Part shown: positions 1,428 through 50,022 of the stretch, piece after piece
Numbering within the stretch: the first letter of the stretch is position 1
Layout: every line of letters begins with the position of its first letter
DNA from: Prevotella sp.
Lineage (GTDB): Bacteria > Bacteroidota > Bacteroidia > Bacteroidales > Bacteroidaceae
Assembly (NCBI GenBank): GCA_017561825.1
Contig: JAFZBK010000042.1
Coordinates: 10,524 to 74,523 of the forward strand
Length of the DNA stretch: 64,000 nt
Direction: 5' to 3'
The notes under the pieces: model-generated
Databases searched by the model: none
The model's input: only the letters and a program-made list of their open reading frames with translations
What the model was told of the DNA's origin: nothing
Made by a program: the position numbers and the translations under genes

Positions 1428-1558
1428 GGAAACTGTAAATAAATTTGCGTTTTCGCTCGTTTATGCGTAACTTTAACTACGTTGAAAGTACTTTCACTCG
1501 ACTATCAAAAGAAAAACACGTTTTCCTTTTGATTTGTGCTCGCTTAATCGTACCTTTG
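1428..1558 (+). repeat. Promoter-carrying structured repeat, copy A (partial unit plus full unit), upstream of murQ
   Basis: cgtaacttt|aactacgttgaaagtactttcactcg..hairpin..ctcg..cgtacctttg; TTTG(1528-31)-N19-TACCTTTG(1551-58). Confidence 0.8.
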
Positions 1559-1569
1559 CACATGAGATC

Positions 1570-1617
1570 ATGAAAGCACATCCCCGTGCCATCAGCGTTT
1601 TTTCGCTGGGATATACA
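1570..1617 (+). pseudogene. Diverged duplicate of comF 3' end (MKAHPRAISVFSLGYT)
   Basis: 40/48 nt and 15/16 aa identical to 116..163. Confidence 0.75.
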
Positions 1618-1635
1618 AAGAAAGAGGATTTGAGA

Positions 1636-2448
1636 ATGAAGACAGAGGACAAGATTACCGAGCGACCCTCACATTTCGACCATCTTGAGCAGATGTCGGT
1701 GAAGGAACTGCTGCAGCACATCAACGAGGAGGATGCGCTGGTGGCTGGTGTGGTGCATGAGGCGATACCACAGATAGAGGCCTTGGTGGAAGCGGTTGAG
1801 CCGAGGATGAAGCAAGGTGGCAGACTCTTCTATGTAGGCGCCGGCACCAGTGGAAGATTAGGCGTATTGGATGCCAGTGAGCTGCCTCCCACTTTCGGTG
1901 TGCCAGAAGAATGGGTGGTAGGACTTATTGCCGGAGGTGACGAGGCCTTGCGGCACGCTATCGAAAAGGCAGAGGATGTGCCAGAACAAGGCTGGCGTGA
2001 CTTAGAGACTTATCATCCAACAATAAATGACACTGTGATTGGCATTGCCGCCTCTGGTACCACACCCTATGTTATTGGGGCTGTCAGTGAAGCCAAACGA
2101 CAAGGATTGTTGACAGGCTGTATTACCAGTAATCCCCAAACCCCGTTGGCTGAGGTTGTCGATTTCCCCATTGAAACCATTGTAGGACCAGAGTTCGTAA
2201 CAGGCTCCAGTCGTATGAAAAGCGGAACGGCCCAGAAGATGGTGCTGAACATGATTTCCACCACGCTGATGATTCGTTTGGGACGTGTAGAAGGTAACCG
2301 CATGGTTAAGATGCAGCTGAAGAACGCTAAACTTGTAGATCGCGGTACACGGATGATCCAAGAGTCGTTAGGTATTCCCTACAACGAGGCTGAACGTCGT
2401 TTGCTGGAAGCGGGCAGTGTGGATGGGGTGTTGAAAGATAACCTTTAG
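1636..2448 (+). CDS. murQ: N-acetylmuramic acid 6-phosphate etherase
   Basis: GAGTSGRLGVLDASELPPTFG, GIAASGTTPYV, GPEFVTGSSRMKSGTAQKMVLNMIST; start placed at ATG 1636 (ATG 1570 is in frame). Confidence 0.95.
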   Translation: MKTEDKITERPSHFDHLEQMSVKELLQHINEEDALVAGVVHEAIPQIEALVEAVEPRMKQGGRLFYVGAGTSGRLGVLDASELPPTFGVPEEWVVGLIAGGDEALRHAIEKAEDVPEQGWRDLETYHPTINDTVIGIAASGTTPYVIGAVSEAKRQGLLTGCITSNPQTPLAEVVDFPIETIVGPEFVTGSSRMKSGTAQKMVLNMISTTLMIRLGRVEGNRMVKMQLKNAKLVDRGTRMIQESLGIPYNEAERRLLEAGSVDGVLKDNL

Positions 2449-2530
2449 CTTCGCCGAAAGTACTTTCACTCGAAAATGAAAAGAAAAGTAATCTTTCCTT
2501 TTGCATTTTACTCGTTTATCCGTACCTTTG
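2440..2530 (+). repeat. Promoter-carrying structured repeat, copy B, upstream of pyrE
   Basis: accttt|agcttcgccgaaagtactttcactcg..hairpin..ctcg..cgtacctttg; TTTG(2500-03)-N19-TACCTTTG(2523-30). Confidence 0.8.
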
Positions 2531-2539
2531 CACAAAAAT

Positions 2540-3178
2540 ATGAATATGGATACATTGAAGAAAGCATTTGCCAGGAAACTCCTGGAAGTGAAAGCCGTTA
2601 AACTGCAGCCCAACAACCCGTTTACATGGGCCAGCGGATGGAAGTCACCGATTTATACTGATAACCGCAAGACCCTTTCCTACCCGGAACTGCGCACGAT
2701 GGTGAAACTTGCCCTGACGCACATGATCCTCGAACAGTTCCCTGAGGCAGAGGCCGTTGCAGGTGTGGCTACAGGAGCTATTGCTCAAGGTGCCTTGGTG
2801 GCTGATGAGCTGAACCTGCCTTATGTATATGTAAGACCCAAACCGAAAGATCATGGTATGGGTAATCAGATAGAAGGTGAGCTGCCCGAAGGTGCGAAAG
2901 TGATTGTCGTGGAAGACCTGATCTCCACGGGTGGCTCCTCTCTGAAAGCCGTTGACGCCTTGCGCCGCGCCGGCTTTGAAGTGGTTGGTATGGTGGCCAG
3001 CTACACCTATGGATTCCCCGTAGCTGAAGAGGCATTCCGTGAGGCTGGTGTCAAACTGCTGACCATCTCCGACTACGAGCATGTGGTGGCAGAAGCATTG
3101 TCAACAGGTTATATCGCCGAGAACGATGTAAAACTCTTGCAAGAGTGGCGGAAAGATCCGGCAGGATGGAAAGTGTAA
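2540..3178 (+). CDS. pyrE: Orotate phosphoribosyltransferase
   Basis: FTWASGWKSPIYTDNR, VVEDLISTGGSS PRPP-binding motif. Confidence 0.95.
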   Translation: MNMDTLKKAFARKLLEVKAVKLQPNNPFTWASGWKSPIYTDNRKTLSYPELRTMVKLALTHMILEQFPEAEAVAGVATGAIAQGALVADELNLPYVYVRPKPKDHGMGNQIEGELPEGAKVIVVEDLISTGGSSLKAVDALRRAGFEVVGMVASYTYGFPVAEEAFREAGVKLLTISDYEHVVAEALSTGYIAENDVKLLQEWRKDPAGWKV

Positions 3179-3260
3179 GGGACTTGGTCAAAGGGATTCG
3201 GTCAAAGGCCAAAGGCTAAAAGCCAAAAGCTAAAGTAATCATAATTAAAGTTCAAAGCTA
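3178..3260 (+). repeat. Heptamer-based tandem array (TCAAAGG/TCAAAGT-like)
   Basis: ggtcaaag/gccaaag/gctaaag/gttcaaag units; related block at 3679-3792. Confidence 0.75.
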
Positions 3261-3265
3261 ATAGG

Positions 3266-3679
3266 ATGAGTACATTCGAGAGTAGCGTAAAGATTGTGGA
3301 ATATCCTCAGGAGAAGGTGTATGCCACGTTAAGCGACCTATCCAACCTGGGTAAGCTGGAAGGTAGGTTCCCAGAAGATACGTTCCAAGATTTCGAGTTC
3401 AGTGCAGACAGTGTGAGCATCAGTGTGCAACCTGTAGGTAAGGTGGCCATGAATATCGTTGACCGCGAAGAACCGAAATGCATCAAGTACGAGACGATAC
3501 AGTCGCCTGTACCTTTCAACCTCTGGGTACAACTGCTTCCTGTTACAGAGACAACCTGTAAGATGAAGCTTACCATCAAGGCCGACCTGAATCCGTTCGT
3601 CAAGGTTATGATTTCAAAACCGCTGAACGAAGGATTGGAGAAGCTGGCCGATACGCTGGCACAGGTGAGGTATGAATAA
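3266..3679 (+). CDS. SRPBCC/START-like (CoxG/polyketide cyclase-like) protein
   Basis: 137 aa, PQEKVYATLSDLSNL pattern; pyrE-SRPBCC-argH order is common in Bacteroidales. Confidence 0.7.
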   Translation: MSTFESSVKIVEYPQEKVYATLSDLSNLGKLEGRFPEDTFQDFEFSADSVSISVQPVGKVAMNIVDREEPKCIKYETIQSPVPFNLWVQLLPVTETTCKMKLTIKADLNPFVKVMISKPLNEGLEKLADTLAQVRYE

Positions 3680-3792
3680 GGGATTCGGTCAAAGGTCGAA
3701 GGGACTTGGTCAAAGGTCGAAGGCCGAAGGTTTAAAGCTAAAGTAATCATAAAGTTCAAAGTTCAAAGATCAAAGTTCAAAGAACAAAGCTA
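3679..3792 (+). repeat. Heptamer tandem array (TCAAAGT/TCGAAGG)
   Basis: aaagttc aaagttc aaagatc aaagttc aaagaac; shares gctaaagtaatcataa with 3178-3260. Confidence 0.8.
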
Positions 3793-3797
3793 CGAAG

Positions 3798-5132
3798 ATG
3801 AAACTGTGGGAGAAGAATTATCAGGTGAACGAGGAGATTGAACGCTTCACCGTAGGTCATGACCGCGAGATGGATCTCTATCTGGCTCCATACGATGTGT
3901 TGGGCTCGATGGCGCATATCACCATGCTGGAGAGTATCGGACTGTTGGAAAAAGAAGAACTGCCCCAACTGCTGAGTGAGCTGCGCAACATCTACCGACT
4001 GTGCGAAAACGGCGAGTTCATCATCGAGGATGGTATTGAGGATGTACACTCGCAAGTGGAGCTGATGCTGACCCGTAAGTTGGGCGACATGGGAAAGAAG
4101 ATCCATAGCGGACGGTCGCGCAACGATCAGGTACTGGTGGATCTGAAACTCTTCACCCGTCATGAACTGAAGGAGATTGCCGATCTCGTCAAGATCCTGT
4201 TTGACGAACTGATCGCCAAGAGTAATCAGTATAAGGATGTGCTGATGCCTGGATATACGCATCTGCAGATTGCCATGCCTTCCTCTTTTGGACTGTGGTT
4301 TGGTGCCTATGCTGAGAGTCTGACCGATGATATGCTCTTCCTGCAGGCTGCCTACCGCATGACCAACCGGAATCCCTTGGGATCAGCTGCCGGCTATGGT
4401 TCATCGTTCCCGCTGAACCGTCAGATGACCACCGATCTATTAGGCTTTGACTCGATGGACTACAACGTGGTCTATGCCCAGATGGGACGTGGCAAGATGG
4501 AGCGCAACGTCGCCTTTGCTCTGGCTTCAATCGCAGGAACCATCGCTAAGATGGCCTTTGATGCCTGTCTGTTCAACTCACAGAACTTCTCGTTTGTGAA
4601 ACTGCCCAAGGAGTGTACCACTGGTAGCAGTATCATGCCGCATAAGAAGAACCCTGATGTGTTTGAACTGATCCGTGCCAAGAGCAATAAGATACAAGGA
4701 CTTCCCCAGCAGGTGATGCTGATCATGAACAACCTGCCCGTGGGCTACTTCCGTGATCTACAGATTATCAAAGAGGTGTTCCTGCCTGCCTTTGACGAAC
4801 TGAAGGACTGTCTGCAGATGACCGCCTACATCATCAACAAGATGGAAGTGAATGAGCATATCCTCGATAATGTGATGTACGACCCAATCTTCTCGGTGGA
4901 GGAAGTGAACCGTCTTGCCGCCAACGGTATGCCGTTCCGTGATGCTTATAAAAAGGTAGGACTGGATATCGAGGCTGGAGCCTTCCATGCTGACAAGCAG
5001 ATTCATCACACCCACGAAGGAAGCATCGGTAACCTCTGCAACGATAAGATCGAGGCACTGATGAAACAGATTCTCGGCGAGTTCCATTTTGAACGAACTG
5101 AAATCGCCATTAGGCGATTAGTTGACAGTTGA
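3798..5132 (+). CDS. argH: Argininosuccinate lyase
   Basis: EDVHSQVE, HSGRSRNDQV, MPGYTHLQ, GSSIMPHKKNPD signature. Confidence 0.95.
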   Translation: MKLWEKNYQVNEEIERFTVGHDREMDLYLAPYDVLGSMAHITMLESIGLLEKEELPQLLSELRNIYRLCENGEFIIEDGIEDVHSQVELMLTRKLGDMGKKIHSGRSRNDQVLVDLKLFTRHELKEIADLVKILFDELIAKSNQYKDVLMPGYTHLQIAMPSSFGLWFGAYAESLTDDMLFLQAAYRMTNRNPLGSAAGYGSSFPLNRQMTTDLLGFDSMDYNVVYAQMGRGKMERNVAFALASIAGTIAKMAFDACLFNSQNFSFVKLPKECTTGSSIMPHKKNPDVFELIRAKSNKIQGLPQQVMLIMNNLPVGYFRDLQIIKEVFLPAFDELKDCLQMTAYIINKMEVNEHILDNVMYDPIFSVEEVNRLAANGMPFRDAYKKVGLDIEAGAFHADKQIHHTHEGSIGNLCNDKIEALMKQILGEFHFERTEIAIRRLVDS

Positions 5133-5158
5133 TAGTTGATAGTTGATAGTGATAGTGA
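5121..5158 (+). repeat. Heptamer tandem repeat (GTTGATA)n over the argH stop
   Basis: gttgaca gttgata gttgata gttgata gtgata gtga. Confidence 0.75.
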
Positions 5159-5709
5159 AACGTTGGGTAATAGGGCTATTAGGACTATTCGTCTTAGGTT
5201 CGTGCGGTAAGAGTGAGTTCGAGTATTCGCCACACCGTGCACGACTGGTTTATGACAACAGTGTACATCTGGATGCTACCCTCTCGGTAGCGATGAATGC
5301 CATGGCTCCAGGTATCTTCTGTCGTGTATCTCTTTCAGGCAATTACTTCATCTTTACGAACAATCAAGGACAGAGCAGTAAGCAACCCATGACATCCGTG
5401 GAACAGCAGCGGATTCCCATACTGGGTGTTAACAACGAGAGTGGAGTGATTGTGGGGTTCGGTCTGCTGAACGACCCGGCAGTGTTCTATGCCTATGATG
5501 CACAATGCCCGAACTGTTACGAGAACGACAGTCGGCCACGCTACCTGTTATCCATGACTTCCGACGGAAAGGCCAAATGCGGAAAATGCGGACGGGTGTA
5601 TGACATGAACAACAGTGGAATCGTTACCGATGGCGGTCCTGGCGAGAAGCTATATCGCTACCATGCCTCCACTACAGGTCCCAACGGTATCCTATCTGTA
5701 AATAATTAG
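5143..5709 (+). CDS. Lipoprotein with Cys-rich Rieske-like fold (hypothetical)
   Basis: LGSC lipobox; YDAQCPNC...AKCGKCGRVYD; start codon uncertain (TTG/GTG inside the repeat). Confidence 0.6.
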   Translation: MIVIVKRWVIGLLGLFVLGSCGKSEFEYSPHRARLVYDNSVHLDATLSVAMNAMAPGIFCRVSLSGNYFIFTNNQGQSSKQPMTSVEQQRIPILGVNNESGVIVGFGLLNDPAVFYAYDAQCPNCYENDSRPRYLLSMTSDGKAKCGKCGRVYDMNNSGIVTDGGPGEKLYRYHASTTGPNGILSVNN

Positions 5710-5790
5710 ACGTATATATTAAAAGGTGCAAAAAATTTTGGCTTTTAGAAGAAATCCCACTATCTTTGCACCGTTTTAACAAATCCACAG

Positions 5791-5866
5791 GCGGAAATAG
5801 CTCAGTTGGTAGAGCACAACCTTGCCAAGGTTGGGGTCGCGGGTCCGAGTCCCGTTTTCCGCTCCA
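5791..5866 (+). tRNA. tRNA-Gly(GCC)
   Basis: Cloverleaf GCGGAAA..TTTCCGC-T-CCA, anticodon loop TTGCCAA; TATCTTTG promoter box at 5761. Confidence 0.95.
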
Positions 5867-5886
5867 TTCATGATAGCGATAACCAT

Positions 5887-5972
5887 GCCGCAATGGTGGA
5901 ATTGGTAGACACGAGGGACTTAAAATCCCTTGGCCAGTGATGGCTGTGCGGGTTCGAGTCCCGCTCGCGGCA
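5887..5972 (+). tRNA. tRNA-Leu(TAA)
   Basis: GGTGGAATTGGTAGAC D-arm, loop CTTAAAA, long variable arm, GGTTCGAGTCC. Confidence 0.95.
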
Positions 5973-5992
5973 CCTTTAAATCTTTATTCATT

Positions 5993-7672
5993 ATGCGCAA
6001 AAATCTGATTTTATTCGTTTCTGCTGTCGGCATGATCATGATGACCTCATGTTCCTCGAAGCTGGGTGCTCTCTCCGCCGACAATTTCAATGTTGTTCCT
6101 AACCCCATGGAAACAGAGGCAGGAAAGGTTCCTGTAACCATCAACGGTATGTTCCCCGAGAAATACCTGAAGAAGAAGGCTGTTGTTTCCGTGATTCCTG
6201 AGATCCGTTGCAGCAACGGTGATGTGGTTCAGGGACAGAGTGCTTCATTCCAAGGCGAAAAGGTTCAGGGTAATGACCAGACCATTTCCTATAAGTTAGG
6301 TGGAAACTACACCATGAAGAACATCTTCACTTATATTCCTGCCATGCAGAAGAGCGATCTTTATCTGACCTTCGATGCCAAGGTAGGAAAGAAGAAGGTA
6401 AGTGTTCCTGCCGTGAAAGTAGCAGAAGGTGTTATTGCCACCTCTGAACTGTACCGTAACCTGCTCACTTCAACAGGTGCTTGTATTGCTCCTGATACGT
6501 TCCAGCGCATCAATGCCCACAAGCAAGAAGCACAAATCAAGTTCCTCGTCAACCAGGCTAACCTGCGCAAGAGCGAGCTGAAGAACAACTCTGTTACAGA
6601 GTTCGTGGAGATGCTGAAGAGAATCAACCGTGAGCGTGAGACCCTTGCCATCAAGGATATCGACGTTTTGGGCTTCGCTTCTCCTGAGGGTGCATACGAC
6701 TTCAACGACAAGCTGGCTAACAAACGTCAGAACACCGCTGAGCAGTATGTGAAGGATCAGTTGAAGAAGACCAAGGTGAACACGGATATCAATGCCAAGT
6801 ATACGGCAGAGGACTGGGATGGATTCCAGCAGTTGGTACAGGCCAGCAATATCCAGGATAAGGATGTGATCCTCCGCGTGCTCTCCATGTATAAGGATCC
6901 GCAGGAGCGCGAGCAGCAGATCCGCAACATGTCTGCCGGCTATCGCGAGTTGGCCGACGGCATCCTGCCAGAACTTCGTCGTTCACGCATGATCATCAAC
7001 TACGAGACCATCGGTCGCAGTGATGAGCAGATCCAGCAGCAGTATGTAGCCGACCCGGCACAACTCAGCGTTGATGAGTTGCTTTATTCTGCTACGCTGA
7101 CTGATGATGTCAACAAGCAGGAAGAGATCTACAAGACCGCTGCCAAGTTGTATCCCGCCGACTACCGTGCACTGAATAACATTGCTGCCCTTGAGTTCAA
7201 CAAGGGTAACAACAGTGCTGCCAAGGAGTACATCAATCAGGTGTTCAATGTGCTGAGCAACGCTCCTGAAGCCAATGCCAACCTCGGTATGATGGCTCTG
7301 CAGAACGGTGACGTTGCCAATGCTGAGAACTATATCGCCAAGGCTACCAATGCTAACGGTCTGAACAACGTGCTTGGTGCGCTGAACATTGCCAAGGGTA
7401 ACTACGCAGAGGCTGCCAAGAACCTGGCTAACTCCGAGAGCAACCTCGCTGGTCTGGCTGAACTGCTGAACAAGAACTATGCTACTGCTGAGGTTATCCT
7501 GAACAGTGTGAAGAACAAGGATGGCATGACCAAATACCTGCAGGCACTTGTAGCAGCTCGTCAGGGTCGTTCCAGCATCGCCTCTGGCTTCCTGAAAGAG
7601 GCTCTGAACCTTGATCCGAGTCTGGCAGCTTATGCCGCTAACGACTTGGAGTTACTGAACGTCAGCAAATAA
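5993..7672 (+). CDS. Lipoprotein with OmpA-like domain and C-terminal TPRs
   Basis: MTSC lipobox; GFASPEG..N..LA..R OmpA-like motif; Ala/Asn-rich TPR helices. Confidence 0.8.
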   Translation: MRKNLILFVSAVGMIMMTSCSSKLGALSADNFNVVPNPMETEAGKVPVTINGMFPEKYLKKKAVVSVIPEIRCSNGDVVQGQSASFQGEKVQGNDQTISYKLGGNYTMKNIFTYIPAMQKSDLYLTFDAKVGKKKVSVPAVKVAEGVIATSELYRNLLTSTGACIAPDTFQRINAHKQEAQIKFLVNQANLRKSELKNNSVTEFVEMLKRINRERETLAIKDIDVLGFASPEGAYDFNDKLANKRQNTAEQYVKDQLKKTKVNTDINAKYTAEDWDGFQQLVQASNIQDKDVILRVLSMYKDPQEREQQIRNMSAGYRELADGILPELRRSRMIINYETIGRSDEQIQQQYVADPAQLSVDELLYSATLTDDVNKQEEIYKTAAKLYPADYRALNNIAALEFNKGNNSAAKEYINQVFNVLSNAPEANANLGMMALQNGDVANAENYIAKATNANGLNNVLGALNIAKGNYAEAAKNLANSESNLAGLAELLNKNYATAEVILNSVKNKDGMTKYLQALVAARQGRSSIASGFLKEALNLDPSLAAYAANDLELLNVSK

Positions 7673-7684
7673 TCACACTTCTTC

Positions 7685-8695
7685 ATGAAGCGATACAGCT
7701 ATATACTACTCGCCCTGATTCTGGTTTCATGTGGAGCACCCAGCGGTCAGTTCAAGATCGAAGGACGTTTCCTCAACCTGAACCAGGGTGAGTTCTATGT
7801 ATATAGTACCGACGGACTGATCAATGGGGTGGATACCATCCATACCACTGGTGGTCGCTTCAGCTATCAGATTCCCTGTGAGGATAAGGGTACGATCATG
7901 CTGGTGTTCCCCAACTTCTCCGAACAACCCATTTTTGCAGAATCAGGTAAGACTGCTCATGTCAAGGCTGATGCCACCCACCTCAAGGAGATGGTGGTGG
8001 AAGGCTCTGATGCCAATGAACTGATGAGCCGCTTCCGTCAGGCTGTGGCCACCGCGTCACCACCTGAGACGGTTCAAAAGGCGGCATTGTTCATCAAAGA
8101 CAACCCGAAATCACCAGTCAGCATCTACCTGCTCAAACAATACTTCATCCTTTCAGCCACGCCCGACTACCGTCAGGCTATCCAACTGGCTGATGTATTG
8201 ATCAAGGCACAGCCTGAGAATGTCAAACTGATCCGCCTAAAGCATGACCTCGACATTTTGAACACCATGCAGGTTAATGCCAAGATGCCTTCATTCACCG
8301 CCGTTGACATCTACGGACGTAGTGTTTCCGATGCTAGTCTGCGAGGAAAGGTAGCTGTGGTTCATGTCTGGTCATCTTGGAACTACGAGAGTCAGGACAT
8401 TCTGCGTCGTCTGCGCAATCTATATACAGATAACCGTAGTCAGTTGGGCATCGTAGGTATCTGTATTGATGGTTCTAAGCGCGACTGCCGGAACTTCCTG
8501 AAGCACGACTCGGTACCATGGCCTACCATCTGCGACGAACAGATGTTCGAAGGTCAACTGATTGCGAAATTCGGTCTTTTATCCATCCCCGACAATGTCG
8601 TCATGGATACCAATGGAAAGGTTGTTGCCCGCGGATTGAATGCAAATGAATTACGCGAACGGTTAGAGAAGATGCTGAAGAAAGACTCGCCATGA
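7685..8695 (+). CDS. DUF4369 + TlpA/AhpC-TSA thioredoxin-fold lipoprotein
   Basis: LVSC lipobox; PSFTAVDIYG..LRGKVAVVHVWSSW, IPDNVVMDTNGKVVAR; lacks CxxC. Confidence 0.75.
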   Translation: MKRYSYILLALILVSCGAPSGQFKIEGRFLNLNQGEFYVYSTDGLINGVDTIHTTGGRFSYQIPCEDKGTIMLVFPNFSEQPIFAESGKTAHVKADATHLKEMVVEGSDANELMSRFRQAVATASPPETVQKAALFIKDNPKSPVSIYLLKQYFILSATPDYRQAIQLADVLIKAQPENVKLIRLKHDLDILNTMQVNAKMPSFTAVDIYGRSVSDASLRGKVAVVHVWSSWNYESQDILRRLRNLYTDNRSQLGIVGICIDGSKRDCRNFLKHDSVPWPTICDEQMFEGQLIAKFGLLSIPDNVVMDTNGKVVARGLNANELRERLEKMLKKDSP

Positions 8696-8749
8696 TCTGT
8701 TTTCTTCCCTAGCTCACAACCGATTTATCAACTTAATCATAAGTCTAAT

Positions 8750-10306: not shown

Positions 10307-10339
10307 GTACAAATTATTTTGGCTTTTTCGTCGAATATT

Positions 10340-10422
10340 CGTAACTTTAACTACGTTGAAAGTACTCACGTTCGGAAAACTGCAAATAAATTTGCATTTT
10401 CGCTCACTTAATCGTACCTTTG
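10340..10422 (+). repeat. Promoter-carrying structured repeat, copy C, upstream of metG
   Basis: cgtaactttaactacgttgaaagtact identical to copy A; TTTG(10391-94)-N20-TACCTTTG(10415-22). Confidence 0.8.
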
Positions 10423-10440
10423 CACCCAAATTCAATAAAA

Positions 10441-12510: not shown

Positions 12511-12561
12511 TTCAACTATTGTATTCCTATAGTCATTGACTCTAGTTTTTATAAATAGAAT

Positions 12562-12585
12562 CAGGCTGCACTTACGTGCAGCCTG
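12562..12585. terminator. Intrinsic terminator hairpin
   Basis: caggctgcac-ttac-gtgcagcctg perfect 10-bp stem downstream of metG. Confidence 0.7.
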
Positions 12586-12838
12586 TTACTGTTTCCCTAC
12601 TACTTGAGTCTTTTTCAACCTGCAAAACTTTAACGACTGTGTCAATCATTCAGATAAACTGAAGATGACTATATATTGTAACTAGTTATGTGTTTCGTGT
12701 GCAAAGATATGGCATATTTTTCAATAGGCAGGTACTCAAATGTTTTCTTTTAGTAGTTAAAATGTTAAGTGGTTGTTTTTTTTGGTTTTTCGCTCGGTTA
12801 TTAGTACCTTTGTCGAACGAAAACAGCCTCTTTTGACT

Positions 12839-12910: not shown

Positions 12911-12932
12911 CAAACTACTAAACACTACCATT

Positions 12933-17791: not shown

Positions 17792-17903
17792 CAAAGATAC
17801 GAAAAATCGAGCGCAGGACAAAAGAAACGAGTTCCTTTTTTTGTTGAAGAGAATAAGTTTCCTTGAGCAAAGCGAAAAACTTCGTAAGTTTGGGACAAAG
17901 TTA
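17792..17903 (-). repeat. Promoter-carrying structured repeat, copy E (diverged), upstream of MATE
   Basis: Minus strand: TAACTTTG...gaaacttat..caaaaaaggaactcgtttcttttg..gcgctcgatttttcgTATCTTTG. Confidence 0.6.
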
Positions 17904-30750: not shown

Positions 30751-30848
30751 TTTTCGTAATTTTGGCTATGCTGAACTTATAAAGCGCTCAGTAATGAAAA
30801 GAAAATCTTGTTTTTATTTTGTATTACTCTCGACTTTTCGTAATTTTG
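30751..30848 (+). repeat. Promoter-carrying structured repeat, copy F, upstream of tRNA-Leu/Val
   Basis: Exact 14-bp direct repeat TTTTCGTAATTTTG at 30751 and 30835; TTTG(30818-21)-N19-TAATTTTG. Confidence 0.8.
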
Positions 30849-32104: not shown

Positions 32105-32197
32105 ATTTTCTGCCTTTTATGTTTTGGCTACAAAATTACAACTTTTCGGGCGATTATACGCAGAATTGAATGGAAAATTCGTAATTTTGCACTCAGA

Positions 32198-36800: not shown

Positions 36801-36816
36801 TTCAATTGTTTTTGTT

Positions 36817-40836: not shown

Positions 40837-40926
40837 TAGACTAAAAAATTAAATTAAACTAAATATATACTTTATGCTAAATTCTCTCAACGAGTCACAC
40901 CTCTCCAGTGGAAAGATGCCAATAAT

Positions 40927-40964
40927 TTGTGCAAATATACGCTTTATTATTATGTTGCGCAAAC
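40927..40964 (-). promoter_or_regulatory. sigma-A promoter for the large lipoprotein operon
   Basis: Minus strand TTTG...TATATTTG. Confidence 0.65.
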
Positions 40965-41207
40965 AATTCTCTATCTTTTTTCATAAAAAGAACAAAATTT
41001 AACATTTTTATTGCCTCTTGCCCTAAATATGAACGCATTTCATGCTAAAACATCAGCATTTACGCGTATTTTGAAAGGTGCACACGATTATCTACACTAA
41101 TCATTTCCAATTTCACTCATTTTAATCATTCCTCCTTCTTTCTCCATAGGCAATTATTGTTTTTAATGTTTCGCGCGTGCGCGCATTATTATAATAAGGT
41201 GTCCCAG

Positions 41208-43133: not shown

Positions 43134-43295
43134 TAGTCTTTGCTTTCTCTATTATGCTGCATAATAAAACAGTGCAAAGATATGAAAAGATATGGAAAAA
43201 CAAAACTTTTTTCACAAAAAACGTGCCAAAATGCTATAAATTAAGCAAAAAAGCCCCTCAAACGAGGAGCTTTTCAATAAAAATAGCCTTTTTGC

Positions 43296-44744
43296 TTAGA
43301 ATTCCGCATTCTTGGGAGTTCTCGGGAATGGTATCACATCACGGATGTTCTGCATGCCTGTTACGAACAGGATAAGGCGCTCAAATCCAAGACCAAAGCC
43401 AGCATGAGGACAAGATCCATACTTACGGGTATCAAGATACCACCACAGCTTATCGGTCTCCATTCCACGATCGGTAATCTCACCCATCAGCTTGTCGTAG
43501 CTTTCTTCACGGACAGAACCGCCAATGATCTCTCCAATCTGCGGGAAGAGCACATCAGTGCCTTGCATGGTGGGTCCAGGAGCCACACAACCCTTGTAAC
43601 CAACCGATCCTTCACCCTGCTTCTCGTTCTGTTTCATATAGAACGCCTTGATACATGCGGGGTAGTCGGTCATGATTACCGGTTTCTTGAAATGCTCCTC
43701 AACCAGATAGCGCTCATGCTCACTGGCCAGATCATCACCCCACTCGCAGGGGAACTCAAACTTCTTGCCATTCTTGATGGCTTCCTGAAGTATCTCAATA
43801 CCCTTTGTGTAAGGCAAACGAACAAACTCCTCTTTCAGTACGCCTTCCAAACGAGGAATCAGATCATGCTGTGGCGTAATGAACTTATTGTTGTTGATAA
43901 ACTCCAAGTCGTCCTTGCATTTCTCCAAGGCCCATCGTACGCAGTACTTGATGAAATCCTCTTCCAGGTCCATCAGTTCCTCCTGATCTAGGAAAGCCAC
44001 CTCAGGTTCCACCATCCAGAACTCAGCCAGATGTCGGGGTGTGTTAGAGTTCTCTGCACGGAATGTAGGACCAAAGGTATAAATAGCACCCAATGCCGTA
44101 GCACCAAGCTCACCCTCCAACTGTCCGGATACCGTCAGGGAAGTCTGCTGACCAAAGAAATCATCATCATAGATAATCTTCCCGTTCTCATCCTTCTGCA
44201 AGTCATACAGGTTCTTGGTCGTCACCTGGAACATGTTTCCTGCTCCCTCGCAATCACTGGCCGTGATCAGCGGGGTATGGAAATAGTAGAACCCATGCTC
44301 ATGGAAATAGGTATGGATGGCCATGGCCATGTTATGACGAATACGCATCACGGCTCCGAAGACGTTGGTTCGAAGACGCAGATGGGCATACTGACGCATA
44401 TACTCGAAAGTCTGCCCTTTCTTCTGCATCGGATAATCGCTGCCGCAAAGGCCATATACCGTAATCTCCGTACACTGTATCTCAGAAGCCTGACCCTGTG
44501 CCGGACTCTCTACGAGCGTACCTGTTACACCTATGCAAGCTCCAGTAGTGATATTCTTCAGCGTTGCCTCGTCCACACGACCAGCATCCACCACAATTTG
44601 GATGTTCTTGATGGTTGATCCATCGTTCAGGGCGATAAAGTCAACAGCCTTACTGCTACGGTGCGTGCGCACCCAGCCCATCACAGTGATCGTCTTTCCA
44701 TAATCGGTGCTTTGGAGCGCATCGATGATCTTTGTTCTTTTCAT
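43296..44744 (-). CDS. asnS: Asparagine--tRNA ligase
   Basis: [47 protein letters not shown]. Confidence 0.97.
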
Positions 44745-44753
44745 ATGCATCTA

Positions 44754-46187
44754 TTATTCAAAAGCGCCCATGCGCAACATCTCCACTTCCTTTTCGGTCA
44801 GGAAACGCCAGTCACCACGACGCAGGTTCTTTTTGGTAAGACCGGCAAACTGTACACGATCCAGTTTCACAACACGGTAGCCAAGACTCTCGAAGATACG
44901 GCGAACGATGCGGTTCTTTCCACTGTGGATCTCCACGCCCACCTGACTCTTGTCATTCTCGTTGCAATACTCGATGGCATCTGCGTGTACCTCACCATCC
45001 TCCAGGTCGATACCCTCCTTGATTCGTTCCATATCCTGAGGATCCACGTTCTTGTCGAGGAATACATGATATACCTTCTTCTTCAGGAACTTCGGATGAG
45101 TAAGTTTAGAAGCCAGGTCACCGTCGTTGGTGAGCAACAGCACACCTGTTGTGTTCCTATCCAGACGGCCTACAGGGTAGATGCGCTCAGGACACACGTT
45201 CTTTACGAGATCCATCACGGTCTTGCGCTGCTGAGGATCATCACTGGTTGTTACATAATCCTTGGGTTTATTAAGCAACACATATACCTTCTTCTCCAAA
45301 GATACAGGAGCATCGTGGAATACCACTTCATCTGTGCGCAGAACTTTTGTTCCCAATTCGGTTACCACCTGTCCGTTGACAGTTACAGCACCAGAGAGGA
45401 TGAACTCATCAGCCTCACGGCGACTGCAGATACCTGCGTTGGCCAAATACTTATTCAGACGGATCGGCTCATTCGGATCCACATTCACCTCTTTGTATTC
45501 GATACGCTTCTTCAAGCTATACTTCGCATTCGGATCATAGCCACCACGCTGCTGACCATAACCGCCACGCTGCTGACCATAACCGCCGCGCTGCTGACCA
45601 TAACCACCACGCTGCTGACCATAACCGCCACGCTGCTGACCATAACCGCCACGCTGCTGACCATAGCCGCCGCGCTGCTGACCGTAACCGCCACGAGGAC
45701 TATAACCGCTCTGCTGACGGGGCTGGTAGCCACCTTCTCCTTCATTGAAGTTTGGACGGGGACGATAACCCTGCTGTGGACGCTGGTTGTAACCACCCTG
45801 ACGAGGTTGGTAACCACCTTCACCCTCATTGTTATTATAGTTAGGACGGGGACGATAGCCTTGCTGACCGTGCTGGTTAAAGCCACCCTGGCGAGACTGG
45901 TACCCTCCCTGATTGCCATAGTTATTACGAGGACGGAATGAACGTTGTGCCGAGCTATCCTGTTGTAAGCCGGCTCCGAAACCTTCCGGACGGAATCCTC
46001 CATCCTCTTCTTTGTTACCCCTGTTAGCGCCATAAGGACGAGCAGTGTGTATACGCGGACGCGGACTGCGTCCCGGTGTTCGATAGTTGGAATAGCCAGT
46101 TGTAGGACGGTAGCCCTCACGGCCTCCCTCTTGCTGGTTCTGTTCAGCAGACATTCCTTCAGTTTTGTTTTCTAATTCTTCTGACAT
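44754..46187 (-). CDS. rRNA pseudouridine synthase (RluB/RluF-like) with long low-complexity N-terminus
   Basis: S4 domain RLNKYLANAGICSRREAD, NKPKD, VGRLDRNTTGVLLLTNDG. Confidence 0.92.
   Translation of the reverse strand: MSEELENKTEGMSAEQNQQEGGREGYRPTTGYSNYRTPGRSPRPRIHTARPYGANRGNKEEDGGFRPEGFGAGLQQDSSAQRSFRPRNNYGNQGGYQSRQGGFNQHGQQGYRPRPNYNNNEGEGGYQPRQGGYNQRPQQGYRPRPNFNEGEGGYQPRQQSGYSPRGGYGQQRGGYGQQRGGYGQQRGGYGQQRGGYGQQRGGYGQQRGGYGQQRGGYDPNAKYSLKKRIEYKEVNVDPNEPIRLNKYLANAGICSRREADEFILSGAVTVNGQVVTELGTKVLRTDEVVFHDAPVSLEKKVYVLLNKPKDYVTTSDDPQQRKTVMDLVKNVCPERIYPVGRLDRNTTGVLLLTNDGDLASKLTHPKFLKKKVYHVFLDKNVDPQDMERIKEGIDLEDGEVHADAIEYCNENDKSQVGVEIHSGKNRIVRRIFESLGYRVVKLDRVQFAGLTKKNLRRGDWRFLTEKEVEMLRMGAFE
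45538..45696 (-). repeat. 21-bp tandem repeat encoding (GGYGQQR)x7
   Basis: ccataaccgccacgctgctga units on the + strand. Confidence 0.92.
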
Positions 46188-46261
46188 GGTAATAATGATA
46201 ATAATAAAACAATAAATTAATAAATATAAAATAAAGAGATGCCTAATCGCTTAGGCAAAAG

Positions 46262-47626
46262 TTAAACTCCTGTATAATTATCAGGTGTGATAGCCATCAG
46301 TTCGGCCTTTACCTTATCATCTACATCCAATGACTGGATGAATGCATGAATCGCTTCCTCTGTCATATGTTTATTGGTACGTGTAAGAGCTTTCAGTGCT
46401 TCATACGGATGCGGGTATGCCTCACGGCGCAAGATGGTCTGGATGGCTTCGGCCACCACTGCCCATGTGTTATCCAAATCTCCGGTTAGCTTATCCTCAT
46501 TTAAGATCAGCTTACGCAATCCCTTCAGTGTACTCTGGATGGCAATCATGCCATGACCCAATGGAACTCCGATGTTGCGCAAGACGGTAGAGTCGGTCAG
46601 GTCACGCTGCAAACGACTCACGGGCAGTTTCTGCGAAAGAAACAGAAGTACGGCATTGGCCATTCCCATATTTCCCTCCGAGTTCTCGAAGTCGATAGGG
46701 TTCACCTTATGTGGCATGGCACTGCTTCCCACTTCCCCTTCTTTGATCTTCTGCTTGAAATACTCCATAGAGATATACATCCAGAAGTCGCGGTCAAGAT
46801 CAATGATGATGGTATTGATTCTCCGCAGTGCATCGAACAAGGCGGCCAACTGATCATAGTTACTGATCTGGGTGGTGTATTGTTCACGCTGCAGACCGAG
46901 TTTCTCGCTGACGAAACGGTTGGCGAATGCCTGCCAGTCATACTGCGGATAAGCCACATGATGTGCATTGAAATTGCCCGTTGCCCCTCCGAACTTAGCC
47001 GTAAACGGCACGTTCTTCAATGAAACAATCTGCTGTTCCAGTCGATAGACGAATACCTGAATCTCCTTACCCAGTCGTGTAGGAGAAGCAGGTTGACCAT
47101 GAGTCCTTGCCAGCATCGGCACATCACTCCACTGCTCTGCATCTTCTTTCAAGAGGGTCACGAGTTCCTCCAGCATCGGGATATACGCATCCTCCAGCGC
47201 TTCTTTCACAGAAAGAGGAACACTGGTATTGTTAATGTCTTGAGAGGTCAGGCCAAAATGAATAAATTCCTTGTATTTGTCGAGGGTAGGACATGCTGCA
47301 TCCTTTGATATCTCATCGAATCTCTCCTTGATGAAATATTCCACAGCCTTTACGTCATGATTGGTGATCTTCTCAATGTCTTTCACTCGCTGGGCATCAG
47401 CCACGTTGAAGTCACGATAGATAGAGCGCAGACGACCAAAGAGTGTCTGGTCGAAATCTGCCAACTGAGGAAGTGGCAATTCACATAAGGTAATGAAATA
47501 CTCAATCTCTACCCGTACACGGTAACGAATAAGCGCATACTCTGAGAAATATCCTGCCAACGTCTCTGTCTTACTTCTATATCTACCATCAATCGGTGAG
47601 ATGGCTGTCAAAACATCAAGATTCAT
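46262..47626 (-). CDS. purB: Adenylosuccinate lyase
   Basis: AISPIDGRY, TNHDVKAVEY, ARTHGQPA, GSSAMPHKVNPIDFEN. Confidence 0.96.
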   Translation of the reverse strand: MNLDVLTAISPIDGRYRSKTETLAGYFSEYALIRYRVRVEIEYFITLCELPLPQLADFDQTLFGRLRSIYRDFNVADAQRVKDIEKITNHDVKAVEYFIKERFDEISKDAACPTLDKYKEFIHFGLTSQDINNTSVPLSVKEALEDAYIPMLEELVTLLKEDAEQWSDVPMLARTHGQPASPTRLGKEIQVFVYRLEQQIVSLKNVPFTAKFGGATGNFNAHHVAYPQYDWQAFANRFVSEKLGLQREQYTTQISNYDQLAALFDALRRINTIIIDLDRDFWMYISMEYFKQKIKEGEVGSSAMPHKVNPIDFENSEGNMGMANAVLLFLSQKLPVSRLQRDLTDSTVLRNIGVPLGHGMIAIQSTLKGLRKLILNEDKLTGDLDNTWAVVAEAIQTILRREAYPHPYEALKALTRTNKHMTEEAIHAFIQSLDVDDKVKAELMAITPDNYTGV

Positions 47627-47758
47627 CACTGTCTTTATACGTATTTATACTATGGACTGCAAAGGTAGCAATAATATTCGATAATCCTGCTAACACATCC
47701 TCATTTTTTCGACTCTAATCAAAAAAAACTTCCAGCCATAAGACTGGAAGCTATTTTG

Positions 47759-47833
47759 TGGGCGTTGACGGATTCGAACCGCCGACCCTCTGCTTGTAAG
47801 GCAGATGCTCTAAACCAGCTGAGCTAAACGCCC
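47759..47833 (-). tRNA. tRNA-Val(TAC)
   Basis: GGGCGTT/AACGCCC acceptor, loop CTTACAA, GGTTCGAATCC; TACCTTTG upstream, hairpin terminator downstream. Confidence 0.95.
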
Positions 47834-47956
47834 TTTTTTTCAAAAGCGCTGCAAAGGTACGATGTTTTTTTTATTCCACCAAATTTTCGAAGGTTTTTTT
47901 TCGTTTTCTGTGAAAAAAGAATGGGAATAGGTTGTTTTAGCAGCCCACTTTCGTAT

Positions 47957-48032
47957 AGTCCGCACATTGCGGACTCCCAGTCCGAAGCTTACGGACTCTC
48001 AGTCCGCAACGTCGCGGACTGGGAATCCGTAA
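47957..48032. repeat. Tandem 22-bp palindromic units (AGTCCG-N7/8-CGGACT)
   Basis: Units start at 47957, 47979, 48001, with a partial unit at ~48024. Confidence 0.8.
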
Positions 48033-48060
48033 GTCACAAACTCATCACGAACTTGAATCT

Positions 48061-48486
48061 TTACAGACGATACAAGTCACTTGCCGCAATCAGATCCACT
48101 TTCTTCTCCTCGAGGATACGGTCGCAGCTGTCAAGATCAGTAGGACGAATAACGATATTGGCTACGTCACCATTGGCAAAGCTGTACATATACTCGATGA
48201 AGACGCCATTGTCTGACAGGTATTTCAGCACCAAGGCCAGTGAGCCACTGGTATTCGGACAAGTAAAACCGATCACATCCGTGATCTTCACGGCAAACCC
48301 TGCTTCCTTCAGCACCTTGTAGGCTGCATCAGGATCAGAAACGATACAGCGCAGAATGCCAAAATCGCTATTATCTGCAATACTCATGGCTGACAGGTTG
48401 ATGCCTGCACTTCCCAATACATCTGTTACTTCGGTCAGACGACCGCCTTTATTCTCCAGGAAAACGGATAATTGTTTTGCTTTCAT
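48061..48486 (-). CDS. ACT domain-containing protein
   Basis: QLSVFLENKGGRL..GINLSAMSIADNSDFGILR; usual paaK neighbour. Confidence 0.9.
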   Translation of the reverse strand: MKAKQLSVFLENKGGRLTEVTDVLGSAGINLSAMSIADNSDFGILRCIVSDPDAAYKVLKEAGFAVKITDVIGFTCPNTSGSLALVLKYLSDNGVFIEYMYSFANGDVANIVIRPTDLDSCDRILEEKKVDLIAASDLYRL

Positions 48487-48518
48487 ATGCTTCTTTCTAT
48501 TTGATTGTCAGGTAATTG

Positions 48519-49820
48519 TTATTTAAAAACACGATTATCGAATACACGTTTGGCCTTTCCTGTACTCCGTTCGATGCTCTTCGGCTCAACAAGACGTACC
48601 TTGAAGCCAATGCCAATGACGCTACGAAGCTCTGATTCCAGTTTCTTCTGCAGACCCACCAACTGACCCATCTCGTCTGTGAAGTATTCTTCCTTCACCT
48701 CTACCTTCAATTCAGAGGTGTCGGTATTGTTCACACGGTCAACATTTAGCACGAAATGAGGTTCAAACTCTGGCAGACTGAGGATGACGGCCTCAATCTG
48801 TGACGGGAATACATTCACACCACGGATGATGAGCATATCGTCGCAACGACCCAGGATACGATCCATCCTTACCAACGTACGTCCACATTCACAACGGTCA
48901 TAATGCAAAGCTGTCAGGTCGTGCGTACGATAACGAAGGAGAGGCATTCCCTCTTTGGTGAGATGAGTGAACGCCAGTTCGCCGAATGATCCTTCAGGAA
49001 GTGACTCACCTGTATTAGGATCAAGAATCTCGGGATAGAAATAATCCTCACTGAGATGTGTACCATTCTGGCACTGGCATTCATAACCCACACCAGGACC
49101 AGCAATCTCACTCAGTCCGTAGATATCGTATGCCTTGATGCCCAAGGTGCTCTCAAGTTTTGCACGCATCTCTTCCGTCCAAGGCTCAGCACCGAAAGCA
49201 CCGATCTTCAGTTTGAACTCTTCCCGAGGCCACTCGCTCTCTTGCAGAGCCTCACCAAGGAACATGGCATATGATGGCGTACAGCAAAGCACGGTGGCTC
49301 CAAAGTCATGCATCAGCGTTATCTGTTTCTGGGTATTACCAGAAGACATGGGGATCACACTTGCCCCAATATTGGTAGCGCCATCATGCGCACCGAGTCC
49401 ACCTGTAAACAGGCCATAGCCGTATGACACCTGGAAGATGTCCTCTTTAGCGGCACCATAGGCGGTAAAGGCACGTGATATACTCTCTGTCCACATAGCC
49501 ACATCCTTACGGGTATAAAGAACCACCACAGGCTTTCCCGTTGTACCCGAGGAAGCGTGGATACGTACTATCTGACTCATCGGCACTGCGGCCAATCCAA
49601 AAGGATAGTTGTCTCTCAGGTCGAGTTTATTGGTAAAGGGAAGCTTCACAATGTCATCAATACTCTTGATGTCACCGGGCTCCAGTCCCATTTCCTGAAA
49701 TTTCTTACGGTAAAACGGTGTGTTATGATACACATAATCCGCCATTTTCCTTAAACGCTGGCTCTGGATCTCACGTAATTGCTCACGATCCATGCACTCG
49801 ATACTTTCATTCCAAATCAT
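48519..49820 (-). CDS. paaK: Phenylacetate--CoA ligase family protein
   Basis: HASSGTTGKP, YGYGLFTGGLG, GAEPW, DIYGLSE, RYRTHD, GVNVFPSQIE. Confidence 0.9.
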   Translation of the reverse strand: MIWNESIECMDREQLREIQSQRLRKMADYVYHNTPFYRKKFQEMGLEPGDIKSIDDIVKLPFTNKLDLRDNYPFGLAAVPMSQIVRIHASSGTTGKPVVVLYTRKDVAMWTESISRAFTAYGAAKEDIFQVSYGYGLFTGGLGAHDGATNIGASVIPMSSGNTQKQITLMHDFGATVLCCTPSYAMFLGEALQESEWPREEFKLKIGAFGAEPWTEEMRAKLESTLGIKAYDIYGLSEIAGPGVGYECQCQNGTHLSEDYFYPEILDPNTGESLPEGSFGELAFTHLTKEGMPLLRYRTHDLTALHYDRCECGRTLVRMDRILGRCDDMLIIRGVNVFPSQIEAVILSLPEFEPHFVLNVDRVNNTDTSELKVEVKEEYFTDEMGQLVGLQKKLESELRSVIGIGFKVRLVEPKSIERSTGKAKRVFDNRVFK

Positions 49821-49852
49821 CACTTAAAATCATTATTAATTTGATTTGGGCA

Positions 49853-50022
49853 CAAAGTTACGAAAAAACGAGAGCAGAACAAAAAGAATTCATTCTTTTT
49901 TTATGCCGAGTGCATTGTAAGTTCGCGGATAAGTCCGCAAAGTTACAAAAAATCGAGAGCAGAACAAAATAAACTTGTTTTTTTTTCCGAGTGAATTGTA
50001 AGTTCGGCGAAGCCAAATATAC
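49853..50022 (-). repeat. Promoter-carrying structured repeat, tandem copies G1+G2, upstream of paaK
   Basis: Minus: TATATTT|ggcttcgccgaactta..cactcgg..ttttgttctgctctcg..TAACTTT|gcggacttatccgcgaactta..cactcgg..ttttgttctgctctcg..TAACTTTG. Confidence 0.85.

What the first reader, a model, noticed from the sequence alone, without database searches (positions are those of the whole stretch)
1428..50022. Candidate promoter-targeting miniature mobile element that regenerates the sigma-A promoter it sits in
Seen: six intergenic loci (1428-1558, 2440-2530, 10340-10422, 17792-17903 minus, 30751-30848, 49853-50022 minus tandem pair) share one ~73-100 bp architecture. It runs TAnnTTT | short hairpin | GAA(A/C)(G/T)TA | CACTCG-like | long A-rich/T-rich hairpin | CTCG-like | (C)GTAnnTTT|G. 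The same -7-box-like word lies at both ends; copy F has an exact 14-bp direct repeat TTTTCGTAATTTTG. In copies A, B, C and F the 3' arm of the long hairpin supplies TTTG 19-20 nt before the terminal TAnnTTTG. Every copy points at a gene start a short distance away (murQ, pyrE, metG, MATE, tRNA-Leu/Val, paaK). Established: TTTG-N19/21-TAnnTTTG is the Bacteroidetes sigma-A promoter. Inference: this is a non-autonomous element that inserts at -7 boxes and is tolerated even before essential genes, because it rebuilds the promoter. No mobilising enzyme is encoded in this window. Similar repeats may be widespread in Prevotella, and I cannot confirm novelty.
Basis: partly seen in the sequence, partly recalled or inferred. 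Interest (0 to 1): 0.8.

Follow-up and report, generated by a model that had tools for sequence, protein, structure and literature searches.

The report
Tiny jumping DNA that rebuilds promoters
Gut Bacteroidales carry an about 80-base repeat that is present or absent at the same gene-start signal in related genomes and phages; it lands inside that signal and carries a matching copy at its far end, so it likely keeps the gene switched on while spreading, probably as folded single-stranded DNA moved by an enzyme not yet found.

Summary
A 72-89 bp structured element has 133 loci in this genome, none in a reversed-genome control, and occurs patchily across Bacteroidales and in phages. Related genomes give filled/empty pairs in both directions: the empty allele is one TAnnTTTG box; the filled allele keeps that box on the left and ends in the element's own box, so there is no target duplication. 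96 of 98 parsed units end in TAnnTTTG, 97 of 98 have TTTG 19-20 nt before it, and 88 of 91 terminal units face an ORF. The element's variable box base matches the empty target in 20 of 29 cases (about 9 expected). Covariation supports a mini-hairpin plus rod; GNA loops and wobble polarity point to the antisense DNA strand. The displaced upstream box often decays. No enzyme, gene-bearing long copy, Rfam family or prior description was found; Y1 and RT genes are missing from some element-rich genomes. Verdict: a promoter-targeting, promoter-replacing non-autonomous element; promoter activity and mechanism are inferred.

The parts
1424..1474 (+). Older 3' half-copy ending in the -7 box (1467-1474) into which unit A inserted
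   Evidence: G198 and G323 have a half-copy promoter directly before pyrE at this place
1475..1557 (+). Unit A: mini-hairpin 1475-1483, box-complement 1484-1491, rod 1496-1543 with -33 TTTG at 1528-1531, own -7 box 1550-1557; faces murQ
1570..2448 (+). murQ, bracketed by units A and B; absent from this place in G198 and G323; its TAG stop is completed by the first bases of unit B
2439..2446 (+). Left box-like word of unit B, inside the end of murQ
2447..2529 (+). Unit B, -33 TTTG at 2500-2503, own -7 box 2522-2529; faces pyrE
   Evidence: one contig of run X9 has about 72 extra bases here
10341..10421 (+). Left box 10341-10348 and 73-bp unit C (10349-10421, -33 TTTG 10391-10394); faces metG; G198 has a plain box here
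12776..12812 (+).
17792..17903 (-). Degenerate unit D with a nested extra module; faces the MATE gene; G198 has a different complete unit at this promoter
30751..30848 (+). Unit E with the exact 14-bp repeat at 30751 and 30835; faces tRNA-Leu/tRNA-Val
32131..32139 (-). Empty -7 box before asd in this genome; filled by a unit in G198
49854..49938 (-). Unit F2 (long-loop left hairpin), terminal -7 box 49854-49861; faces the PaaK-like gene
49939..50014 (-). Unit F1; its -7 box (49939-49946) is the left box of F2
50015..50022 (-). Original host -7 box (rare variant GTATATTT); identical to the single box of the empty allele in G198

Best explanation
This is a non-autonomous mobile element of 72-89 bp that inserts into the TTTG of the Bacteroidetes sigma-A -7 box without duplicating it and ends in its own -33/-7 pair, which likely takes over as the gene's promoter; it likely moves as folded single-stranded DNA, cut and joined by a strand-transfer enzyme (most likely HUH-type) supplied from elsewhere. 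Shown by comparison of genomes: presence/absence at orthologous boxes, the junction inside nTTTG, left box from the target and right box from the element, serial insertion into a box that an earlier copy supplied, and frequent damage to the displaced box and loss of the old upstream region. Shown by covariation: a 3-bp mini-hairpin at the left end and a rod whose outer stem pairs the internal box-complement with the terminal box. Inferred: the antisense (template) strand is the folded substrate; the enzyme reads the structure and a TT|S junction that all sister families share; the target is chosen partly by base-pairing to the element's end; an excised circle would be a closed rod with the junction three pairs from a GNA cap. 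Because every insertion leaves a consensus box before the gene, insertion is tolerated before essential genes and makes a fresh target, which gives arrays. My odds: mobile and -7-targeted 0.95, working replacement promoter 0.85, ssDNA intermediate 0.7, HUH-type enzyme 0.45.
For: Filled/empty: of 91 terminal units in G000 and 2.38 Mb of G198, 63 had an orthologous box: 29 without element, 16 with a 3' half-copy, 18 filled in both (24 no ortholog, 4 no box). Cleanest pairs: G323 L502 vs G198 L108 (96% flank identity, precise insert), window F vs L063, C2:38672 vs L049, L107, L108, L142 vs G000, phage L478 empty vs L479/L480 filled. Rare target variants stay on the left (F, C26, L055, L067). Serial insertion: L505 vs L123. 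Promoter match: 96 of 98 right boxes TAnnTTTG, 97 of 98 with TTTG 19-20 nt upstream; ORF within 100 nt in 88 of 91 vs 22 of 91 on the opposite strand. Target matching: variable base equals the empty site's in 20 of 29, against 9.7 by shuffling (0 of 5000 shuffles reached 20) and 8.9 from background. Structure: 94.4% of cells paired, 152 cells changed on both sides vs 53.9 shuffled, far above slid controls. Strand: A.C 25 vs G.T 4 in the rod on the sense strand, C.A 13 vs none at a stem-base pair, and 83 of 83 short loops TNC, i.e. GNA on the antisense strand; the commonest loop gives GCGAAGC, a known extra-stable DNA mini-hairpin (PMC13037366, abstract and passages). Sister families change both the internal complement and the end together. 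Left boxes: 57 of 98 perfect; 84 of 209 with a changed TTT or 1-nt loss.
Against: No enzyme was found: no element beside 6 PF01797 loci and only one partial hit in 30 loci of a Prevotella Y1 family; no Y1 detected in element-rich G511, G718, G917 and that family not in G511, G813, G718, G917, G956, G042. No gene-bearing long copy among 65 left ends in G000 or 100 in viral and metagenome loci. No replication-strand bias, which IS200/IS605 elements show (37:22 vs 603:405, p=0.68; local skew is weak). Folding energies do not settle the strand (linear DNA: antisense lower in 62 of 98; circular DNA: sense lower in 59 of 98), and the end pair of the outer stem is G.T on the sense strand. When left and right nn differ, the empty allele matched left 6 and right 6 times of 16, so the junction rule rests on the rare-variant cases. 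The automatic 'empty' class includes a few alleles with a sister-family end, one deletion derivative and one doubtful box. Flanks next to the junction diverge more than at plain promoters (+2: 0.72 vs 0.94), which a perfectly clean strand transfer does not predict.
Confidence: 0.6

Rival explanations
1. Same element and target, but a host or visiting tyrosine recombinase (XerCD-like) recombines the folded single strand with the -7 box, as with integron attC sites or phage attP hairpins; the 7-8 bp box is the overlap region.
For: Tyrosine recombinases are in 5 of 5 element-rich genomes tested where Y1 and RT are patchy; strand-specific fold with a bulged G (111 bulged G on the 3' arm); need for matching bases between element end and target.
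Against: Those recombinases also ring in 14 of 14 control genomes, so presence says little; only 3 bp and a loop lie on one side of the junction, too short for a binding arm (established knowledge); no attC core motifs; Q and other sister families show little homology between target and end.
Confidence: 0.15
2. No dedicated enzyme: a strong promoter cassette spreads by ectopic recombination or template switching between promoter boxes, and selection keeps it.
For: No enzyme found; matching of the variable base; raised divergence beside junctions; some arrays look like simple unit duplications.
Against: 8 bp is far below what RecA needs (established knowledge); precise junctions at one position in bacteria and phages; strand-specific structure is conserved by compensatory change, also in sister families that do not end in a promoter box.
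Confidence: 0.1
3. Retroposition: a sense transcript is copied by a reverse transcriptase primed at a nick in the target promoter; 3' half-copies are 5'-truncated products.
For: 3' half-copies are as common as full ones (118 vs 86 among candidate promoters) while 5'-only hits are few; G000 and G198 each have an RT gene.
Against: No RT in G511, G813, G718; the structure favours the antisense strand and DNA-type GNA triloops; three-way comparisons show halves arising by later deletion of the left part (L505, L497); full copies include bases upstream of the expected start site.
Confidence: 0.07
4. A vertically inherited cis-regulatory structure of strong promoters, lost in some lineages; not mobile.
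For: Always at promoters; 18 of 63 sites filled in both genomes.
Against: Filled/empty in both directions with one-box empty alleles, different units at the same site in sister genomes (L488 vs L067), nested and tandem units, unrelated downstream genes, patchy distribution and phage copies.
Confidence: 0.02

Closest known systems
IS200/IS605 single-strand elements and their non-autonomous derivatives (PATEs; name recalled)
   Same: Strand-specific hairpin ends, insertion beside a fixed short sequence without duplication, cleavage site chosen by DNA-DNA pairing with a guide 5' of the hairpin (PMC6006769 and PMC8266576, passages).
   Different: One rod instead of separate left and right hairpins; 5-8 bp pairing instead of a tetranucleotide; no replication-strand bias seen; no TnpA in several carrier genomes; target is the promoter box.
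REP/BIME elements with TnpA-REP (RAYT), including the atypical Bacteroidetes subclass 2.6
   Same: Short, intergenic, high-copy, imperfect hairpins with conserved mismatches, in mosaics.
   Different: No GTAG/GTGG tag, not flanking Y1 genes, direct tandem arrays, 5' of genes, clear filled/empty sites at one target.
Neisseria Correia (CREE) MITEs and IS-borne promoters of Bacteroides (cfiA, cepA, nim)
   Same: Small or mobile DNA that supplies or completes promoters; CREE target duplications resemble the -10 box (PMC9330008, passages).
   Different: Those have terminal inverted repeats and duplicate the target, and create promoters incidentally; this one targets the existing core box, has no inverted ends and replaces the promoter in register.
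CGTC-tagged palindromic repeats
   Same: Structured repeats, some in Bacteroidetes, with no known dedicated transposase (PMC3733652, passages).
   Different: No CGTC tag; promoter-box target; demonstrated insertion polymorphism.
Integron attC sites and IS91/Helitron rolling-circle elements (features recalled)
   Same: Folded single strand with an extrahelical base (attC); no duplication, 3' GC-rich hairpin, tandem units and captured neighbours such as murQ (rolling circle).
   Different: No attC core motifs or integron; no Y2 transposase detected (control silent).

Membership tests
   96 of 98 and 97 of 98 units (the parser required GTA at the right box, so the first count is partly by construction)
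Bacteroidetes sigma-A promoter | Transcription starts just downstream of the box | not testable with these tools
   No RNA run was available to lay
MITE (DDE-type, e.g. Correia) | Terminal inverted repeats | tested here: not met
   Ends are a mini-hairpin and a box; no terminal inverted repeat in 98 parsed units
MITE (DDE-type, e.g. Correia) | Target site duplication | tested here: not met
   Rare target variants stay left while the right box follows the element's internal complement
REP / RAYT system | GTAG or GTGG tetranucleotide at the hairpin foot | tested here: not met
   Absent from the consensus on either strand
REP / RAYT system | Copies flank a Y1 (RAYT) gene | tested here: not met
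   0 of 6 PF01797 loci; 1 partial hit in 30 loci; one G000 Y1 gene (C64:79198-80313) has family members on both sides but its G198 ortholog has none
IS200/IS605 non-autonomous derivative | Insertion at a fixed short target without duplication | tested here: met
IS200/IS605 non-autonomous derivative | Separate left-end and right-end hairpins | tested here: not met
   One rod spans the unit; the only other hairpin is a 3-bp cap
IS200/IS605 non-autonomous derivative | Guide 5' of the hairpin pairs with the cleavage-site sequence | tested here: inconclusive
   On the sense strand the box-complement fits this, but structure points to the antisense strand
IS200/IS605 non-autonomous derivative | Orientation bias to the lagging-strand template | tested here: inconclusive
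   37:22 vs 603:405, p=0.68, with weak local skew on draft contigs
IS200/IS605 non-autonomous derivative | Cognate TnpA in carrier genomes | tested here: not met
   PF01797 not detected in G511, G718, G917; a past or visiting enzyme is not excluded
Integron attC site | RYYYAAC...GTTRRRY core and a linked integron integrase (recalled) | tested here: not met
   Core motifs absent from the consensus; no integrase among 91 of 157 neighbouring ORFs scanned
IS91/ISCR rolling-circle element | Y2 transposase | tested here: inconclusive
   0 of 5 genomes, but the controls were silent too
Rfam RNA family | Match to a covariance model | tested here: not met
   Only tRNAs in the window at gathering threshold; nothing over the elements at E<=1 in five loci

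The most novel reading that the evidence does not exclude
A previously undescribed superfamily of minimal single-stranded DNA elements (GNA mini-hairpin plus rod) moved by an unrecognised or host enzyme, whose target is set by a 5-8 base end duplex and can be reprogrammed by changing it; one lineage has locked onto the housekeeping promoter box, installs a replacement promoter, disables the old one, and now supplies more than a tenth of candidate sigma-A promoters in some Bacteroidales genomes.
Probability: 0.35. Interest if true: 0.92.

Novelty: new variant of a known kind. Interest (0 to 1): 0.8.

Why it matters
A mobile element that uses the core promoter as a safe site by rebuilding it is a strategy I found no bacterial report of in ten library searches. 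In the two genomes measured, full or half copies end 104 of 883 and 100 of 749 candidate sigma-A promoters, so promoter evolution in these rumen and gut Bacteroidales would be driven largely by an 80-bp parasite that standardises -33/-7 spacing, deletes old upstream regulation and may move neighbouring genes. The covarying end duplex and the sister families with other ends make a direct test of base-pair-programmed insertion possible, and the elements are ready-made portable promoters for poorly tractable Prevotella and Alistipes.

Tried and rejected
Enzyme hunt, all negative or unclear: PF01797 loci in G000 and five carriers have no element beside them; GIY-YIG hits were only about 610-aa UvrC-sized proteins, and my recalled GIY-YIG link to CGTC repeats was not in the paper; 91 of 157 element-adjacent ORFs in G198 (chosen by me, mostly the shorter ones) gave no transposase or recombinase domain; a Prevotella Y1 family was in 13 of 14 element-rich and 9 of 27 pattern-negative genomes but absent from G511 and five carriers in other families, and lineage confounds it; RT in 2 of 5, Y2 in 0 of 5 with silent control, tyrosine recombinases in 5 of 5 and all controls; paralog clustering and neighbour clustering over 595 ORFs showed no recurring partner. 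A gene-content comparison with a small carrier genome was not done. Sequencing runs: no RNA holder listed; contigs laid on 900-13200 and 30301-50300 gave no joint that skips a unit, and contigs cannot show circles or starts. Old -33 before the left box is not clearly enriched (17 of 46 vs 430 of 1471). The idea that the left hairpin is copied from the target's downstream sequence was rejected (C32 pair). Whether the damaged left triplet is carried by the element or arises later is unsettled: near-identical units at different loci share it in 5 of 11 cases (shuffle 0.085, p=0.009), but one shared insertion has TTT in two genomes and TCT in the third (L503). Earlier-findings look-ups by sequence, words and place returned nothing. 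ISfinder was not available.


Full report
1. Observation. The six loci are present as described, with the corrections given in the observation check. A profile from seven window units found 159 hits in the host assembly G000; a rebuilt profile found 183 hits at 133 loci and none in the reversed genome. The host is probably a Prevotella-like gut Bacteroidales; this is inferred from the titles of records with matching elements and from the habitat labels of runs that hold the window.

2. Anatomy. In promoter-sense orientation a unit reads: 3-bp hairpin with a TNC loop (or a longer-loop variant), GAAnnTAC, 3-5 nt, one arm of a stem, an A/T-rich hairpin, the other arm, 6 nt, GTAnCTTT, followed by the host's G. 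A strict parser found 98 complete units in G000 (58) and in 2.38 of about 3.2 Mb of the relative G198 (40); lengths are 72-89 bp, with peaks at 73 and 83. The internal GAAnnTAC is the complement of the terminal box: its variable base is Watson-Crick with the right box in 94 of 98 units (shuffle mean 34, maximum 49) and with the left box in 60 of 81 (shuffle mean 29). The two CTCG-like words pair with each other around a tandem T.C/C.T mismatch and change together. On an alignment of 50 of the 80 loci plus 5 window copies, the named structure had 94.4% of cells paired and 152 cells changed on both sides against 53.9 in shuffles; slid controls gave 31-51% and 5-38. Many positions were fixed by the search pattern, so only the free pairs (the variable base and the rod) carry this signal, and the shuffle ignores kinship.

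3. Which strand folds. On the sense strand the rod has 25 A.C against 4 G.T mismatches, one stem-base pair is C.A in 13 units and never G.T, and 83 of 83 short loops are TNC. On the antisense strand these become G.T wobbles, tandem G.A pairs and GNA triloops; the commonest cap contains GCGAAGC, described as an extraordinarily stable DNA mini-hairpin found at single-strand origins and the N4 promoter (PMC13037366; search listing, abstract start and passages). Against this, the last pair of the outer stem is G.T on the sense strand, and folding energies split (linear DNA: antisense lower in 62 of 98; circular DNA: sense lower in 59 of 98); these parameter sets may not reward the unusual motifs. 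I infer an antisense single-stranded DNA substrate.

4. It is mobile and targets the -7 box. G198 and G323 are the nearest of 400 genus genomes searched. Of 91 terminal units, 63 had an orthologous box in the other genome: 29 without an element, 16 with a 3' half-copy and 18 filled in both; 24 had no ortholog in the sequence held and 4 no box. By eye a few of the 29 carry a sister-family end, one is a deletion derivative and one box is doubtful. Clean cases run both ways: the window's F pair is absent from G198, where one box with the same rare variant stands; the window's asd promoter is empty here and filled in G198; G323 L502 is a precise insertion into the box of G198 L108 with 96% identical flanks; phage locus L478 is empty where L479 and L480 are filled. 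The junction lies within nTTTG. Rare target variants stay on the left and the right box follows the element's internal complement, so there is no target duplication; across all discordant cases the split was 6 left, 6 right of 16, as expected from drift and repeated replacement between species. L505 shows a new unit added at the box of an older one whose left part is deleted, and L488 against L067 shows different units at one site. One contig of run X9 has about 72 extra bases at copy B, which fits one more unit; it is a single contig.

5. Target choice. The element's variable base equals that of the empty site in 20 of 29 pairs, against 9.7 by shuffling and 8.9 from 652 plain candidate promoters; that base is conserved in 85% of 253 plain/plain pairs, which caps what can be seen. 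This suggests pairing or homology between the element's end and the target. Sister families keep the chassis but change the end and its complement together: one inserts just upstream of the box, one ends in a non-promoter word, one in another family ends in a CTAT-type box, several in distant families end in non-promoter words, and a second family, Q, sits in 7-mer tandem repeats and nests inside the element. By eye nearly all end in TT followed by C or G.

6. Promoter replacement. 96 of 98 right boxes read TAnnTTTG and 97 of 98 units have TTTG 19-20 nt upstream; the consensus is from B. fragilis and stands before 81% of primary starts in B. thetaiotaomicron (PMC7366714, passages). 88 of 91 terminal units have an ORF of 80 or more codons (or one running to the contig end) within 100 nt, against 22 of 91 on the opposite strand. 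Only 57 of 98 left boxes are perfect; counting only boxes that begin GTA, my tally is 14 of 71 damaged on the left against 2 of 98 on the right. In a wider set, after dropping five duplicate loci, 84 of 209 left boxes have a changed TTT or a 1-nt loss. Upstream flanks are less conserved at filled/empty than at plain pairs (9.4 vs 16.2 of 20, ungapped, inflated by decayed older units). Full or half copies end 104 of 883 candidate promoters in G000 and 100 of 749 in the G198 stretches (motif, A/T-rich upstream, ATG within 70 nt). Activity itself was not measured.

7. Distribution. A strict pattern matched 7 of 36 genus genomes and 0 of 24 from other families, and 39 of 300 family genomes in 8 of 27 genera. 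A covariance model matched 15 of 150 order genomes, in 15 families, some weakly and some being sister elements. Record titles include Prevotella, Bacteroidaceae, Alistipes and Muribaculaceae; 9 viral contigs and animal and human gut metagenomes hold copies.

8. The enzyme. Not found; details in Tried and rejected. Y1, RT and Y2 genes were not detected in one or more near-complete carrier genomes, and no left end led into a gene-bearing long copy. An HUH-type strand transfer remains my first choice because it accounts for a folded single strand, no duplication and base-paired target choice (PMC6006769 and PMC8266576, passages), but the enzyme may be visiting, lost, unrecognised or a host protein.

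9. Comparison and novelty. It works like IS200/IS605 and REP elements but fails their membership tests, and those of MITEs and attC sites. Rfam has no match. Ten searches of the open library (listings only, except passages of PMC6006769, PMC3733652, PMC9330008, PMC7366714, PMC8266576 and PMC13037366) returned no description of it. Subscription papers, ISfinder and supplements were not seen; supplementary motif lists from structured-RNA or REP surveys could hold it. I file it as a new variant of non-autonomous single-strand hairpin elements, with a one-in-three chance of being a new class.

10. Verdict. Observation confirmed; interpretation supported on mobility and targeting, inferred on promoter activity and mechanism. 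Interest 0.8.

Noticed in passing
G000 and G198, e.g. G000 C45:27040, C17:18561; viral loci L170-L191: A second structured family, Q (81 pattern matches in the two genomes, a few spurious), with the same GNA cap and end-pairing stem, sits mostly in 7-mer tandem repeats and also nests inside the promoter element.
   Followed up: partly
window 1570-2448; L034:1765-1841; L019:2294-2317: murQ has a different upstream neighbour in most relatives, and in three genomes its 3' end runs straight into an element end before different genes; possible gene capture or element-bounded deletion.
   Followed up: partly
G000 C34, C32, C9, C64:79198-80313; L106, L065, L138; alignment A1: A multi-copy family of 320-390 aa Y1/HUH proteins with a long C-terminal domain that Pfam does not name (looks DprA/SLOG-like, recalled); mostly missed by PF01797.
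   Followed up: partly
L232-L281 (Alistipes-labelled), L361, L399, L531, L533: Long direct arrays in which inner boxes are damaged, often by the same change, and only the last box is intact.
   Followed up: partly
L479 vs L480: Two near-identical phages carry the same unit at the same site but differ in the terminal box base and the whole short leader after it.
   Followed up: no
G000 C23:126483-126578: A complete unit stands before what looks like the RNase P RNA gene (label recalled).
   Followed up: no
L534 (G198), L535 (G000 C50:575-1201): One reverse transcriptase gene of about 400-430 aa in each of the two genomes; type not determined.
   Followed up: no
window 45512-45716: 21-bp tandem repeat inside a coding region, with length differences in runs X9 and X10.
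   Followed up: no
window 41343-42131: Internal duplication in a 641-aa ORF, including a 206-nt repeat at 98% identity.
   Followed up: no
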